A DNA stretch of 64,000 nt from Candidatus Latescibacterota bacterium. GTDB lineage: Bacteria; Latescibacterota; UBA2968; GCA-2709665. The stretch lies in the NCBI GenBank assembly GCA_965226795.1, contig CBDDDZ010000002.1, positions 128,001 to 192,000 on the forward strand. Direction: 5' to 3'. Positions 33,001 to 45,000 of this stretch are shown piece by piece. Position numbers: made by a program. Within the stretch, counting starts at the first letter, position 1, and each line of letters starts with the position of its first letter.

Positions 33001-36000
33001 GAAACTCATCAGCGAGATTATCTCGGGGAAAGCCGCCATAGAGCCGCAGACAGCGCTTCAGTTCGAAAGGGTGCTGGGGGTCGATGCGGATATCTGGTTG
33101 GATATTGAGAAGGACTATCAGTTGCACCAGATCCGACAAGCCGGGGCCAGGGAAGCGTAGCCGGTAGCGGCGCCGAAGGCGCATTCGCGAGTTCGGACAT
33201 TTGCCGCTTTGCCGATGAGCAGGGCATAGCTCCAGGTATTGTTGTCGGAAGACTCCAGCACGAGGAGCGTCTGCCGTGGAGAAGCCGACTCAATAGATTA
33301 AAGGTACCGCTGGAATGGTCGGAGGGTTGATGTGGAACCAGAAAACCCCCCACGATGGGCGCCGGATCGGAGAACAAAGACATGGATCAGCTAGCCGCCA
33401 AAGACGTGCTTGAACTCGAAGTGTCCGATTTCGGGCCGATCGTTAATGCCAAGATCGATCTGCGCCCGCTGACGGTATTCGTCGGACCGAGCAATACAGG
33501 AAAATCTTATCTGGCGATTCTGATCTATGCGCTGCATGTGTATTTTACGGGTAGATCGACCACTTCGCGGTTCTTCTTGAACTATGAGAGGCTTCTTAAT
33601 CTCGGTCCAAGCTTTGTAGACAGGGAAACTCTCAACGCGCTCAACGAATTTCTGAAGCAAGTGACGAACGGGATAGGAGATATCCGGAGCGAAAAAGAAG
33701 CTGTTCTTCCCATCCCTATTGTCAAGGCAATTTGCTCAATGTTTGAGTTACAGAACGATCAACTCCACAGTGAAATCGAAAGGTGCTTTGGGATCGACAG
33801 TGCCAGCGCACTTATCCGGAAAGGGAACAGGCGATGTGCGCGGATTGTATTACGGAAATCTACTTCAAGGGATTCGGCATCGTTTGAACACGAACTGATT
33901 CTGAAGTCTAATGCACCAGAATTCGTGACGGCGATGCCTAATGTGGAACAACTGAGGGTTAAACTCGACGATAGGAAAGAGTTCGTTGAGTACTACGACC
34001 GCCTGAAGAATACGTTCTTGAGAGCTGATCAAATGGGCCAGGATTCGTATCGACAAGCCTTGGGGCCAATCAATCATTTGCTTGGACTCGCTCTTCCGCA
34101 CCTTGTAGGTTCCCTTTATCGCGCGGCATTCTATCTCCCCGCCGATCGAACCGGCGTGATGAATAGCCATCAGGTGGTAGTGAGTGCGTTGATCCAGAAC
34201 GCTACAACTGCCGGTCTGCGTCCCGATGAAGAAACTCCAATGCTGTCGGGTGTTTTGGGTGATTTTCTGCAAAACTTGCTCGTATTGCCCAGCGCGGCAA
34301 TTCGTCAAAGCACGTCCAGGAAACATCTGGGTGCGCGAATTGAAGATCTGATTCTCGGCGGATCGATTCAGGTCGAAAGATCGGAGTTGATTAGCTACCC
34401 GCACTTCACCTACCAGCCATCGGGATGGAAACATCCGATGCCGTTGATGAATGCCTCTTCCATGGTATCGGAAATCGCACCGGTAGTGATGTTTCTTCGC
34501 CATCTGGTCAGCCCCGGCTGCACGCTCATTATCGAAGAACCCGAGTCACACCTGCACCCTGCCATGCAGGTCGAATTTACCCGTCAGATCGCCGCGCTTG
34601 TTAAGGCGGGAGTCAGGGTAATCGTCACGACGCACAGCGAGTGGGTACTTGAGGAACTCGCCAACATCGTGCGACGCTCCGAACTTCCCGAGTGCCGTCG
34701 AAAGGACATACCCAACGGCGAATTTGCCCTTCGTCCCCAGCAGGTGGGGGCATGGCTGTTCAAGCAGAAGCGTCGACCGAAGGGGTCGATCGTCGAAGAA
34801 ATTCGATTCGATCCGGATGCCGGTGGGCTCGAGAGTGATTTCAGCGAAGTTGCCGAGCAACTTTACAATGAGTGGGCGACGATCGGTAACCGTATTGCAG
34901 GAAGCACCGAGTAATGTGTGGCTTAGTCGAACAGCTGAAAAATGGACTTCCTGAAGGGACCATCGTTAAGAGATGCTCGAAAGAGGGTTGCAAGGTTCCG
35001 TTGAAAAACGCCCCGTCGCCGCATCTGGTTATGGATTTGGATCACCCTTATTTCGACCTGAAGGATAAGACACATTGCGATTTTCTGTTCATCAGTTGCG
35101 ACTGCAATGGTGGTGCCAACTGGGTTGTGCCGCTGGAACTAAAACGCGGCAGTCCGGATGCAACAGAAATGGTATCGCAGCTTCAGGCAGGATCAGGCGT
35201 CGCCCAAGCTAGGATTCCTGAAAAACACAGGGCGCAATTCCTTCCGGTGGATGCCTTCGGAGGTCGTTTGCATATAATACAAAGAGACAAGCTCAGAAAG
35301 GCTCGAATCTCGTTTCGGAGGAAAGAATACGAAATTAGACTCATCCGATGCGGGACTCCCCTGAAAACCGCTCTTCCGTGAGTACAAAATCCTTATGACT
35401 CCTCCACGCAAAAAACTCATCGAAGTCGCCCTTCCGCTTGACGCTATAAATGCTGCATCCGCCCGGGAAAAGTCCATCCGTCACGGCCACCCCTGCACCC
35501 TCCACCTCTGGTGGGCGCGGCGGCCATTGGCGGCAGCGCGGGCGGTGATCTTCGCGCAGATGGTGGATGATCCATCGGGGCACCCGGATCTGTTTCCGAC
35601 CGAGGCTGATCAGGAGAAAGAACGCCAACGCCTGTTTCGCCTTATCGAGGAATTGGTGAAGTGGGAGAACACCACCAACGAGGCCGTTCTGGAACGGGCT
35701 CGGTCTGAGATACGGAAAAGCTGGCGTCGAACCTGCGCCGATAATGCTGACCATCCACGTGCCAGCGAGTTGTTCGACCCGGATAAACTACCGGCATTCC
35801 ACGACCCTTTCGCCGGTGGCGGCTCGTTGCCGCTGGAGGCCCAGCGCCTGGGTCTCGAAGCCTATGCCAGTGACCTCAACCCGGTGGCGGTGCTCATCAA
35901 CAAGGCGATGATCGAGATCCCGCCGAAGTTCGCAGGAAGGCCACCGGTTAATCCTGAAGCGCGGGCGAAGTATTTGGACGCGCGTACATCGCGCACGAAT

Positions 36001-42000: not shown

Positions 42001-45000
42001 GCGGATAGCGGGTCAAGTCGAAGACGCCCTACTTCACTTTGACGGCGTACGCTACCGCTTGCTGTCGTGGGTCATCATGCCCAATCACGTGCATGCGCTG
42101 ATCGAAACGACTCCCGGTTTTCCACTTGAGGCCGTCGTTCATTCGTGGAAATCGTTTACAGCCAAGCAAGTTAACAAAATACTTGGCCGGAGCGGCCAGG
42201 TCTGGGAAGAGGACTACTTCGACCGTTATATCCGCGATGAAAATCATCTATCAACTGTGGTAGACTACATCGAGCAGAACCCTGTAAAAGCGGGTTTGGT
42301 TGACACGGCCAGCGATTGGCGTTGGAGCAGCGCATCAAGAAATGGCAGCAATACAAAACTTGGAGGAACTGCAAGGGAAAATGCGGACGGGACGTCCGCG
42401 TTCCCAGGATTGTGGACCGGAGCAAAAGGCCTCGCGGAGGACGTACGCTATTACGGCCGGTGGATGCGCGACGAAGCCGAGAAACGAATCGGACATCTCT
42501 ATCCTAAGATCGAAGTCACTGCGGAGATGGTCCGTGAACGGCCCGACCTCAAACCGTACGAGGGTAAAAGGTTGACGGTGATCGCGTGGCTTTGGGCACG
42601 GATGGTGAAGAGTCCAAACCCGGCCTTTGCCGACGTAGACGTGCCGCTGGCCTCCACATTCATGCTATCGACAAAGAAGGGGAAAGAGGCGTATGTAGAG
42701 CCGGTGATCGAGGGGCGCGGTTATCGGTTTACGGTTAACGTGGGGAATCCAAATGATGCGGAATCGACGAGGCGGGGCACCAAGTCGGGTGGAAGCGGTA
42801 GCTCTTTTCTTTGCCTCATGTCAGGGACTCCAATGCCATTCGATTATCTTAGGAGCGAGGCCAAGCAAGGTCGAATGGGTGAGAAACTGATGGCAATAGT
42901 CGCAGAAGGCGACCGCGGCCGGGTTTACATCCCCCCGACCGAAGTGCAAGAAGCGATCGCAAAGCGCGCTACGCCGGCTAATACCCCGGAAACCGACCTA
43001 CCTGAACGGGCACTCGGATTTCGCGTGCAGCAGTACGGTATGACCAAGTGGCGGGATCTCTTTGCAGCACGCCAACTCGTCGCCCTGACCACCTTGTCGG
43101 ACTTGGTCGCAGAGGCAATGGAGCGCGTCAACCGCGATTACTTGGCAGCACAGGTCCCTGACATACCTTCGAGCGGGACAGCCTCGGTCCCAGACAACGA
43201 TACGCCCCTACGCAACGGGGGCGCTGGCGCAATGGCGTATGCTGAGGCGGTGGGGGTGTATCTCGGATTGGCTGTGAGTAAGGAGACGGTTTTTCTCGTA
43301 ACACAGGCTCGCTGGAGAGCAGGCGAGGGCAAATCAGCACCTGGGTTTGGGAGGCAGGCGTTGCCAATGGTCTGGGACTACGCAGACCTGAATCCGTTTG
43401 CAGGAGCTGGTGGCGACTTTCTTGGCGTCATTGAGGGGATTGAGAAAACCCTGCGCAATGCGCCTCCTCCGATCGCTGGGTACACTGATCAAGCGGATGC
43501 GATGAATCAGAAATTAAGTCTCGACAAGGTTGTGTCAACGGACCCACCCTACTACGACAACATTGGCTACGCCGACCTTTCCGATTATTTTTACGTTTGG
43601 CTGCGCCACCCGCTTAAGCCGATCCTTCCCTACCTCTTTACTACGCTCGCCGTACCAAAGGTCGACGAATTGGTCGCCACACCATACCGTCACGGCAGCA
43701 AGGTGAAAGCAGAGAAGTTCTTTCTCGATGGTATGGGCCAGGCGATGTGCCGCTTGGCCGAACAAGCGCACCCCGGCTTTCCGGTCACCATCTACTATGC
43801 CTTCAAGCAGTGCGAGACCAAAGGCAACAGTGGTATTTCCAGTACCGGGTGGGAAACTTTCCTGGCTGCCGTAATCCAGTCAGGCTTCGCAGTCACAGGC
43901 ACATGGCCGATGCGTACGGAGAATTCGACTCGGCTTGTCGGTATGATCACCAACTCACTCGCATCCAGCATAGTCCTCGTCTGCCGCAAGCATTCGGCCA
44001 ATGCACCGCTGGCCACGCGCCGCGAGTTCGTCGCCGCGTTGCGGGGAAAACTTCCAAGCGCTCTAGCCCGACTTCAATCCGGAAACATTGCCCCGGTCGA
44101 TCTGGCGCAGGCAGCCATCGGACCCGGCATGGCAGTGTTCACGCGCTATACCAAAGTACTCGATGCCCAGGGCAATCCCGTATCCGTAGGTGACGCCTTG
44201 GCGTTAATTAATCAGACACTCGACGAGGTTCTTGCCGAGCAGGAGGGCGAATTCGACGCCGACACGCGGTGGGCGCTGGCGTGGTTCGAGCAGGAAGGCT
44301 TTGGCGAGGGCGAGTACGGCGTGGCGGAAACCCTGGCGAAGGCAAAGAACACCAGCATCGCCGGCATCGTCGAGGGTGGTATTCTCGCCTCCCGGGGTGG
44401 CAGGGTGCGCCTTTTGCGTCCGAACGAGTTGTCCGGTGACTGGGATCCGACGTCCGACACTCGGCTGACCGTGTGGGAGGCGGTCCACTACCTGGTCCAC
44501 GCTCTTGAATCTGGCGGCGAATCCGCCGCCGCCACGCTGGTTAACCAACTCGGCGGTGTCGCCGAGACCGCACGCGAACTGGCCTATCGGCTATATATCG
44601 TTTGCGAGCGCAAGAACCGCAATGAGGAAGCCCGCTCTTACAACGGCCTCGTACAAAGCTGGCCTGAAATTGCACCCCTGTCTCGGGAGCGAGCTCCGGC
44701 GGAGCAGGGCGACATCTTTAGGGACCGAAATCCGAGAAGTGTCGCATGACGTAACCCTGGGAGCGCGGGCGTCCCGCCCGCATGTTGGAACAGCATATGG
44801 CCGCAGTCCTATCGCTATATCTATGCCATTCCAGAGGCGTAGCGGAAGAAATAACAAGATGCGACCGGCAAGCGGCCCCGTCGGCCGAGATTGGGGACTG
44901 TGAGAACTCACTTTATGAGTGTCCGCTGTGACGGCATAAGTAGAGGTCCAACGGAATGAGTTTAGTGCAATATCTACGTCGTTTTCGTGAGACCCGACGC

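What a model noticed while it worked through the whole genome (the two positions that open the first line are those of the whole stretch)
35395..44749. A RAYT (HUH tyrosine transposase) with terminal hairpins is embedded in frame inside the DUF1156 methyltransferase genes [...]
Both DUF1156 N6-adenine methyltransferase genes of the C2 defence island (g00152, 1193 aa; g00155, 1206 aa) carry a complete REP-associated tyrosine transposase (RAYT, residues ~205-412; HUH motif HVH and the Tyr motif kept) inserted in frame, without start or stop codon of its own, between the N-terminal part (1-182) and the rest of the methyltransferase; the genome's third DUF1156 gene (g02730) has no insert. At the DNA level the insert is bounded by two 7-bp-stem hairpins (GCGGGCG-TCC-CGCCCGC near C2:164000; GCGGACG-GGA-CGTCCGC near 164650), i.e. 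it looks like a REP-RAYT unit that is translated as part of its host protein. The insert plus ~50 codons on each side is 98-100% identical betwe [...]
Evidence so far: blastp: g00152 6-182 = g02730 8-180, 405-1079 = g02730 220-949, and 218-410 = stand-alone RAYT g00143 43-229 at 47%. Sliding nucleotide identity g00152/g00155: codons 150-450 98-100%, upstream 82-91%, downstream 43-84%. Hairpins read from the DNA; tblastn finds this RAYT only in g00152, g00155 and (48%) g00143. Word-indexed search with residues 200-415 among proteins of 656-2088 aa: 634 hits at E<=1e-10, most with PF06634 (DUF1156)+PF01797 (Y1_Tnp), from many phyla, a few in other DNA methyltransferases (PF01555, PF02086, PF02384, MmeI-type). 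In an alignment with 12 such proteins, 10 have the RAYT at exactly this site (after ...IPPKFAG.PPVNP, before W.GA.GLA.DVRYYG), flanked by the conserved [...]
(Added by a program. Inside this text positions count along the whole contig: contig position 128,001 is position 1 of the stretch shown here. "Call 12" and the like, gene names such as g00115 and contig names such as C1 are that model's own, and its searches are not shown. The text may have been shortened before it was handed on; [...] marks where a part breaks off. The agent that wrote the report below was given it as the finding of a first reader that could run no searches.)

Follow-up and report, generated by a model that had tools for sequence, protein, structure and literature searches.

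The report
Transposase cassette translated inside defence methylase
A small hairpin-flanked DNA-cutting gene is read as part of an anti-phage DNA methylase without breaking it, moves between methylase alleles on its own, and in one lineage has left its host gene to live free again, which points to a mobile element that hides inside proteins without splicing itself out.

Summary
Confirmed. Both DUF1156 genes are HmaB methyltransferases of an Hma (BREX-related) locus. Each carries an in-frame REP–RAYT–inverted-REP cassette (35974–36673; 41708–42407). The RAYT keeps its HUH and Tyr residues (85 of 85 site-1 copies), is under purifying selection while embedded (dN/dS about 0.09), and folds as a separate domain on disordered linkers.

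It behaves as a mobile insert, not a fixed Hma part. Most hmaB alleles lack it (1 of 78 loci filled). Three hmaB sites and unrelated hosts are used. Its phylogeny is decoupled from the host on both sides (Spearman 0.3 against 0.8).

Correction: the 'stand-alone' RAYT at 25770–26525 descends from an embedded copy. It carries relics of hmaB flank and nests among site-2 inserts. Gene B bears a probable in-frame scar of such a cassette. The A/B identity alone is ordinary gene conversion.

No description was found in 10 literature searches. This scan noted the same habit before in other genomes. Enzyme activities are untested.

The parts
35395..38976 (+). hmaB copy A (1193 aa): DUF1156 N6-adenine methyltransferase with in-frame RAYT cassette at site 1; motif I at residues 137-143, DPPY at 793-796
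35974..35996 (+). probable decayed outer REP copy at the left end of the cassette in A (likeness read by eye against relatives' junctions)
36010..36036 (+). left REP in A: conserved foot plus 9-bp stem with 3-nt loop, translated as part of the left linker
36043..36597 (+). RAYT core in A (residues 217-401); HUH at 36352-36360, catalytic Tyr380 at 36532-36534
36649..36673 (-). right REP in A, inverted, foot facing outward; 7-bp stem with one two-sided pair change relative to the left REP
35845..36774 (+). gene-conversion tract shared with copy B (about codons 151-460, at least 95% identical), wider than the cassette
38984..39008 (+). lone REP of the same family just after the stop codon of copy A
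39535..40999 (-). split DDE_Tnp_1_4 transposase (two ORFs) between the two hmaB copies
41129..44749 (+). hmaB copy B (1206 aa) with the same site-1 cassette; specificity region only 37-54% identical to A
41744..41770 (+). left REP in B
41777..42331 (+). RAYT core in B (98-99% identical to A)
42383..42407 (-). right REP in B, inverted
43133..43204 (+). site-2 loop of B, 11 residues longer than standard, starting with the junction residues of site-2 cassettes and holding a decayed REP-like stretch (43168-43193): probable in-frame scar of a lost cassette
44757..44781 (+). lone REP just after the stop codon of copy B
25770..26525 (+). free RAYT gene of a second family, derived from an hmaB site-2 cassette; its first in-frame ATG (25782) lies in the relic host flank; flanked by its own REPs near 25706, 25834, 25882, 26500 and 26738
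25549..25800 (+). two tandem relics of the hmaB site-2 5' flank ahead of the free RAYT
26866..30438 (+). hmaA, SNF2 helicase with C-terminal NOV_C domain
53139..56462 (+). hmaC, Swt1-HEPN plus DUF499 ATPase; a REP of the cassette family follows its stop codon near 56478

Best explanation
A REPtron-like cassette (REP, RAYT, inverted REP; about 700 bp) lives as a translated, non-splicing mobile insert in a surface loop of HmaB. (1) Shown: the REP reads without a stop in all six frames, so its ends become harmless linkers. (2) Shown pattern, inferred cause: cassettes occupy a few loops of large genes, in sense and mostly in frame, because other insertions destroy the host gene and are purged. (3) Inferred: the RAYT is made from the host's start codon as one polypeptide, folds as a separate monomeric domain on disordered linkers, and the methyltransferase still works. 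(4) Inferred: the RAYT still binds and nicks its own hairpins in single-stranded DNA. (5) Shown: the cassette moves between hmaB alleles independently of both host flanks. Inferred: this happens by homologous recombination in the conserved flanks or in the REPs, possibly started by RAYT nicks, as homing spreads an intein. (6) Shown for the second family: a cassette can leave its host with some flank and persist as a free gene. Inferred: it can also be deleted, leaving a short in-frame scar.
For: Catalytic H, H and Y kept in 85 of 85 site-1, 27 of 28 site-2 and 113 of 116 short RAYT domains; host motifs kept in 60 of 60 and 22 of 22 proteins of 1100 aa or more. RAYT dN/dS 0.07-0.09 in five embedded pairs at dS 0.9-2.1, like free copies (0.09-0.14). 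Among 53 site-1 proteins, host parts agree with each other (Spearman 0.81-0.87, 0 conflicts between strong splits) while the RAYT does not (0.30-0.32; 7 of 14 strong tail splits conflict with strong RAYT splits). A versus G008: RAYT dS 0.12, host dS 0.9-2.7. Embedded and free copies interleave on the RAYT tree (48 changes against 107 shuffled, 245 domains); filled and empty alleles interleave on the host tree (26 changes for 49 of 137). Three hmaB sites and unrelated hosts such as PriA, MmeI-type, type IIG and SpoU proteins. Hairpins kept with varied stems. Six stop-free frames. Model: RAYT matches 4ER8 at Z 15.7, rmsd 2.7, 143 residues; linkers under pLDDT 50. E. coli TnpAREP is a monomer (PMC3479197, passages). 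Escape of an embedded copy; scars.
Against: No activity was tested. hmaB genes are mosaic outside the insert too (A/B codons 1031-1120, G010/G001 501-640, A/G013 61-100), so recombination need not be driven by the RAYT. The empty allele has no REP to cut and there is no clean junction or target motif. The A/G008 tract (codons about 209-380) is a replacement between two filled alleles, not invasion of an empty one. Some host subfamilies keep their insert as a clade (10 site-1 sequences, support 0.906), which fits long vertical retention. Protein searches see only in-frame fusions and their best hits, so residue conservation is partly ascertained; hairpins were picked for perfect stems, so stem variation is no independent covariation test. 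The methyltransferase fold match is weak (Z about 7). The strong bias to DNA methyltransferases (7 of 8 embedded cases) is not explained by this model.
Confidence: 0.58

Rival explanations
1. The RAYT is a domesticated accessory of Hma and other restriction-modification systems. Tethered at the borders of the target-recognition insert, it nicks its hairpins to speed swapping of specificity domains, or serves as an extra single-strand nuclease in defence.
For: 7 of 8 RAYTs embedded on both sides, out of 80 metagenome loci found with the RAYT alone, are in DNA methyltransferases. Site 1 follows core strand 2 and site 2 lies about 250 residues later, the size given for the target-recognition insert (PMC12839542, passages; placement inferred). 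Near-identical cassettes sit beside specificity regions only about 41-59% identical (76 non-independent pairs). Free RAYTs also sit in Hma loci: before hmaA in 5 same-genus genomes, between hmaB and hmaC in L112, before hmaB on a Chlorohelix plasmid.
Against: 1 of 78 GTDB hmaB loci is filled. Specificity regions diverge just as much against empty alleles (dN about 0.44-0.52). Hosts include PriA, SpoU, creatininase and WYL proteins. The insert does not co-descend with its host. The 5 copies before hmaA are one clade, so one event. Alleles appear to lose the cassette and persist.
Confidence: 0.17
2. The embedded RAYT is an ordinary RAYT kept for whatever benefit free RAYTs give their host (tending the genome's REP population). 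The fusion is a tolerated accident, and its movement among hmaB alleles is passive gene conversion in a highly recombining gene.
For: dN/dS is similar in embedded and free copies. Conversion tracts occur outside the insert. RAYTs are described as domesticated, low-copy genes (PMC5581495, search listing and passages). The genome holds 13 matches to this REP family and no close free RAYT of it. An escaped copy stayed under selection without its host.
Against: Host parts on both sides of the insert stay congruent with each other while the insert alone is decoupled, which passive mosaicism would not favour. One family has 102 of 124 domains at a single site among its nearest long relatives. Repeated recruitment into many genes.
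Confidence: 0.2
3. The cassette is removed before function, by RNA splicing, protein splicing or precise DNA excision, so the methyltransferase is never really a fusion.
For: IS200/IS605 relatives excise precisely (own knowledge). Only 15 joints were listed and 110 were hidden.
Against: No Hint domain in Pfam and no RNA-family search was needed to explain the ends, which are REP peptides. The cassette replaces host residues, so excision cannot restore the empty loop. None of the 15 listed joints skips the insert, and contigs from two RNA libraries bridge the 3' junction (X19 36505-36940, X21 36589-36864; DNA carry-over not excluded). Loss appears to leave 11-12 extra residues.
Confidence: 0.05

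Closest known systems
REPtron / TIRtron: RAYT (TnpAREP) gene flanked by REPs or inverted repeats (E. coli TnpAREP, PDB 4ER8; PMC6006769, PMC3733652, PMC8266576)
   Same: HUH plus Y---NP core of class 2, best sequence and fold match 4ER8, inverted short hairpins on both sides, dispersed copies of the hairpin in the genome.
   Different: No start or stop of its own; translated inside a host protein. The foot is a CTGGG-type motif (28 of 34 hairpins), not GT[AG]G; it resembles the GGGGWSAS motif reported for TIRs (likeness by eye). About 45 extra residues after the first strand. Quentin et al. discarded unexpectedly long proteins as fusions or errors.
In-frame intragenic REPs and Rickettsia RPEs (PMC3733652; subclass 2.4 in PMC6006769)
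   Same: Palindromes inserted in frame in loops, often in DNA-handling genes; scars and REP arrays here look alike.
   Different: Those are short non-coding repeats; here the whole transposase gene is carried in frame and kept under selection.
Inteins with homing endonucleases (own knowledge)
   Same: In-frame insert at fixed sites of DNA enzymes, filled and empty alleles, phylogeny decoupled from the host, gain and loss.
   Different: No splicing domain; the insert stays in a loop; the nuclease is a single-strand HUH enzyme whose presumed substrate is its own hairpin, not the empty allele.
Hma / Type-1 BREX-related system (PMC11232893; bioRxiv 2025.10.09.681413 = PMC12839542)
   Same: HmaA, HmaB and HmaC all score at E = 0 in PADLOC, with other defence genes in between, as described for this hotspot.
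   Different: Two hmaB copies with different specificity regions, each with a RAYT insert. The main texts searched do not contain RAYT or HUH; their supplements could not be read.

Membership tests
RAYT / TnpAREP (class 2 TnpA-Y1) | HUH motif and Y---NP catalytic motif | tested here: met
   H320, H322, Y380-IEQNP; class-2 signature from PMC6006769 section 19
RAYT / TnpAREP (class 2 TnpA-Y1) | Family model score and fold closer to TnpAREP than to IS200 TnpA | tested here: met
   NF047646 92.8 bits vs cut-off 80, IS200 model 29.8 vs 55; 4ER8 Z 15.7 vs 11.1 for IS608 TnpA
RAYT / TnpAREP (class 2 TnpA-Y1) | Cleaves and joins REP-bearing single-stranded DNA | not testable with these tools
   needs in vitro assay
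REPtron (canonical) | Transposase flanked by inverted hairpins that also occur elsewhere in the genome | tested here: met
   only 13 family matches in the genome, so low copy
REPtron (canonical) | GT[AG]G tetranucleotide at the hairpin foot | tested here: not met
   none of the window's hairpins has it; CTGGG/CCGGG foot in 28 of 34 hairpins
REPtron (canonical) | Free-standing gene with extragenic REPs | tested here: not met
   in-frame within hmaB, REPs translated
Intein | Hint splicing domain with terminal catalytic residues | tested here: not met
   no such Pfam hit; the ends are variable REP peptides
Homing element | Insert phylogeny independent of host, with filled and empty alleles | tested here: met
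Homing element | Nuclease cuts the empty allele and drives conversion | not testable with these tools
   no REP in empty site-1 loops; needs crosses
IS200/IS605 | Y---Q motif, multiple transposed copies, precise excision | tested here: not met
   Y---NP motif; two copies, both in hmaB and linked by a conversion tract; host loop replaced
Hma / Type-1 BREX-related | SNF2 helicase, DUF1156 methyltransferase and DUF499 ATPase in one locus | tested here: met
Hma / Type-1 BREX-related | HmaB methylates DNA | not testable with these tools
   motifs intact; activity not shown even for insert-free HmaB in the passages read

The most novel reading that the evidence does not exclude
These cassettes are a class of non-splicing, intein-like mobile domains with a full cycle (insertion into a loop, nick-driven spread between alleles, loss to a scar, escape to a free gene). 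Because they sit at the two borders of the target-recognition insert, their nicks also drive exchange of methyltransferase specificity, making a HUH transposase a built-in diversifier of restriction-modification systems.
Probability: 0.15. Interest if true: 0.9.

Novelty: new variant of a known kind. Interest (0 to 1): 0.68.

Why it matters
RAYTs are thought of as domesticated, free-standing genes that no longer copy themselves and whose benefit is unknown. Here they persist and move as translated inserts inside host enzymes without splicing, a way for a mobile element to avoid harming its host that I found in no paper searched. Filled, empty, scarred and escaped states exist within one genus, so the open question of what RAYTs do and how they move can be tested directly on matched alleles. 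It also warns that long 'transposase' annotations can hide intact defence methyltransferases.

Tried and rejected
A first structure model from 16 sequences was unusable (mean pLDDT 52.6); it was redone with 92 sequences (75.1). Foldseek gave no methyltransferase match at E under 0.001 and the sequence search of the PDB with the full alignment found only 4ER8; VIA-align gave only Z about 7 for methyltransferases, so the host fold is weakly tested. The viral scan gave 4 weak hits at 26-32% and no cassette. No plasmid record held a place covering 80% of the junction-to-junction query (63 records matched in part). Read laying used contigs only, so depth and expression cannot be ranked; no listed joint skips the insert but 110 joints were hidden. 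A/B identity as proof of transposition was rejected. The left edge of the A/G008 tract lies near the left REP, but that stretch is conserved anyway, so it was not taken as a cut site. A shared target motif at the junctions was looked for by eye and not found. A formal covariation count on the hairpins was not run because they had been chosen for perfect stems. The loose foot pattern matched many ordinary loops and was ignored; only loop length and junction residues were used. No Rfam search and no complex prediction were run. Ten literature searches listed no description of a whole RAYT translated inside another gene; subscription papers are mostly absent from the library and the supplements of PMC12839542 could not be read, so a listed domain architecture there is not excluded.

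
Full report
Observation. The two genes are open reading frames of 1193 and 1206 codons. Both hit DUF1156 and Y1_Tnp. The insert of gene A scores above the cut-off of the RAYT model and below that of the IS200 model. H320, H322 and Y380 are intact. A 9-bp-stem hairpin lies left of the RAYT and an inverted 7-bp-stem hairpin right of it, in both genes. Such stems are rare by chance: 70 of 2000 random windows and 0 of 23 host windows, against 19 of 20 left and 18 of 20 right flanks of embedded RAYTs. The same repeat family has 13 matches in the genome, including one just after each hmaB stop codon and one after hmaC. The homologue search gave 634 hits among 1536 candidates, of which 120 were listed.

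Host. PADLOC assigns HmaA (26866-30438), HmaB (both genes) and HmaC (53139-56462), with other defence genes between them. This is the Hma system, renamed Type-1 BREX-related in bioRxiv 2025.10.09.681413 (section 27 and passages read; journal version PMC12839542, passages). Those texts place a target-recognition insert of about 250 residues after core strand 2 and contain neither RAYT nor HUH. Their supplements were not readable. PMC11232893 (passages) describes Hma loci as insertion hotspots and found no effect of HmaB on phage T4.

Anatomy against empty alleles. Of 14 other genomes of the genus, G008 and G010 carry the site-1 cassette; G001, G002, G005 and G013 carry full-length empty alleles and G004 a broken empty one. 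The empty loop is 12-17 residues and is replaced, not interrupted. Among 78 GTDB loci found with the full-length alignment, one is filled (L044, titled Candidatus Latescibacterota); some of these loci are partial. The insert is therefore optional. The REP reads without a stop in all six frames, and those peptides make up the linkers of the homologues. Its foot is CTGGG or CCGGG in 28 of 34 hairpins, not GT[AG]G.

Selection. H, H and Y are kept in 85 of 85 site-1, 27 of 28 site-2, 16 of 16 other long and 113 of 116 short domains; motif I and DPPY are kept in 60 of 60 and 22 of 22 hosts of 1100 aa or more. In the second family DPPY is present in 81 of 81 and the strict motif-I pattern in 75 of 81. 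These are best hits, so partly ascertained. At the DNA level the embedded RAYT has dN/dS 0.07-0.09 in five pairs at dS 0.9-2.1, close to the host N-terminus (0.02-0.09); the linkers are far less constrained. A model from 92 sequences (pLDDT 75, pTM 0.60) shows the RAYT folded between two linkers under pLDDT 50. It matches 4ER8 at Z 15.7 over 143 residues, and a methyltransferase fold spans residues about 30-943 at a weak Z of about 7. E. coli TnpAREP is a monomer (PMC3479197, passages), which would suit life as an inserted domain.

Mobility. Among 53 site-1 proteins (of 77 in the alignment; the rest were too incomplete), distances in the N-terminus, the first C-terminal block and the core plus tail agree (Spearman 0.81-0.87; no conflict between strong splits). 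The RAYT agrees with none (0.30-0.32), and 7 of 14 strong tail splits conflict with strong RAYT splits. Pairs are not independent. A and G008 share codons about 209-380 almost unchanged while host dS is 0.9-2.7. Embedded and free copies interleave on the RAYT tree (48 label changes against 107 shuffled), though some short proteins may be fragments. Filled and empty alleles interleave on the host tree (26 changes for 49 filled of 137; shuffled 40; sampling not random). Against over-reading: the A/B tract (codons 154-461) is wider than the cassette, and other tracts lie outside it, so hmaB recombines freely anyway.

More sites and hosts. A second hmaB site lies about 250 residues downstream and a third in a paralogous subfamily (102, 14 and 5 of 124 domains at sites 2, 1 and 3, plus 3 outside hmaB). 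Four proteins carry two cassettes. Of 80 metagenome loci found with the RAYT alone, 8 are embedded on both sides: 4 in HmaB, 2 in N6_N4 methylases, 1 in a type IIG enzyme and 1 in PriA; one more lies in a frame-broken hmaB and one free between hmaB and hmaC. Every hmaB-associated copy was on the host's strand. Of 150 listed cluster representatives, the 35 of 330 aa or more were scanned; hosts include HmaB, MmeI-type, PriA, SpoU, WYL and creatininase proteins.

The 'stand-alone' RAYT is an escapee. The gene at 25770-26525 aligns with the site-2 cassette of G016 over 771 nt at 80.7%, including host flank that reads FSDLV..MERVK; a second, older flank copy lies at 25559-25752. The flank relic also matches empty alleles weakly (tblastn E 0.005-0.006). 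Five free copies from one genus form one clade nested among site-2 inserts (enclosing supports 95, 97, 95); the embedded rows came from a search limited to long proteins. The free copies remain under selection (dN/dS 0.09-0.14, and 0.27 for the closest pair) and sit just before hmaA. Five distinct alleles without a site-2 RAYT, gene B among them, have loops of 43-44 residues against the usual 32, beginning with the cassette's junction residues. I read these as in-frame scars; a REP-only insertion is the alternative.

Splicing. No Hint domain was found. None of 15 listed joints skips the insert (110 hidden), and contigs from two RNA libraries bridge the 3' junction (weak, since DNA may be present).

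Mechanism. Most likely (0.58) this is a translated, non-splicing mobile insert: transparent ends, survival only in frame in loops, expression from the host start, retained nicking activity, spread by recombination, with loss and escape. Shown: anatomy, selection, decoupled phylogeny, escape. Inferred: both activities and any role of nicks in spread. Rivals: an ordinary beneficial RAYT carried passively (0.20), a domesticated defence or diversifying domain (0.17), and removal by splicing or excision (0.05). The bias to DNA methyltransferases remains unexplained.

Known systems. It works like a REPtron and has RAYT catalytic features, but fails two canonical criteria (GT[AG]G foot, free-standing gene). 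It behaves like an intein in distribution but has no splicing domain. PMC6006769 (abstract, passages, sections 11, 12, 19 and part 2 of 15) discarded long fusions and reports only REPs inserted in frame. PMC3733652 (passages) reports intragenic REPs and TIRtrons. PMC5581495 (passages) and bioRxiv 2021.07.10.451892 (passages) gave no fusion of this kind for the terms searched. PMC8266576 (abstract and part 1 of section 23) gives the assay. Ten searches listed no description. JGI labels already join 'DNA methylase' and 'RayT' on some proteins, so the fusion is visible in databases. Eight earlier notes of this scan report the same habit in other genomes; they are unchecked and were read after my reading was formed. 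This window adds the quantified decoupling from the host, the escape to a free gene and the scars.

Verdict. Real; new variant of a known kind; interest 0.68.

Noticed in passing
window 25549-26525: The free RAYT's first in-frame ATG lies in relic hmaB sequence, so a host methionine codon may now serve as its start; the flank relic is tandemly duplicated.
   Followed up: yes
window 38984-39008, 44757-44781, about 56478: A REP of the cassette family follows the stop codon of both hmaB copies and of hmaC; the first 27 or so bases after the stops of A and B are the same, which may mark the end of the duplicated unit.
   Followed up: partly
window 35395-44749: Two tandem hmaB genes with specificity regions only 37-54% identical share one hmaA and one hmaC; several GTDB loci (L017, L033, L037, L062, L071) also hold two hmaB copies.
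   Followed up: no
window 51363-53087: HEC-01-type pair whose second gene seems split into two short ORFs (52535-52837, 52764-53087).
   Followed up: no
window 46562-50675: Ppl-like ATPase (PADLOC, E 4e-126) followed by an AlbA_2/HATPase protein inside the Hma locus.
   Followed up: no
L081:2050-2180: In G010 the left REP is interrupted by another short palindrome nested in its loop, with the frame kept.
   Followed up: no
L125:529-3393: RAYT with REP arrays embedded in frame in a PriA helicase; P0485 shows the same.
   Followed up: partly
L231:4282-4782: Free distant RAYT-like gene immediately before hmaB in an Hma locus on a Candidatus Chlorohelix plasmid.
   Followed up: partly
window 38983-39100: Summed contig depth over the lone REP is far above the gene in all four runs laid, so this repeat family may be abundant in these communities; not a copy number.
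   Followed up: no
G000 C5:3052385-3052771: Four tandem copies of the same REP at about 120-125-bp spacing, far from any RAYT found.
   Followed up: no
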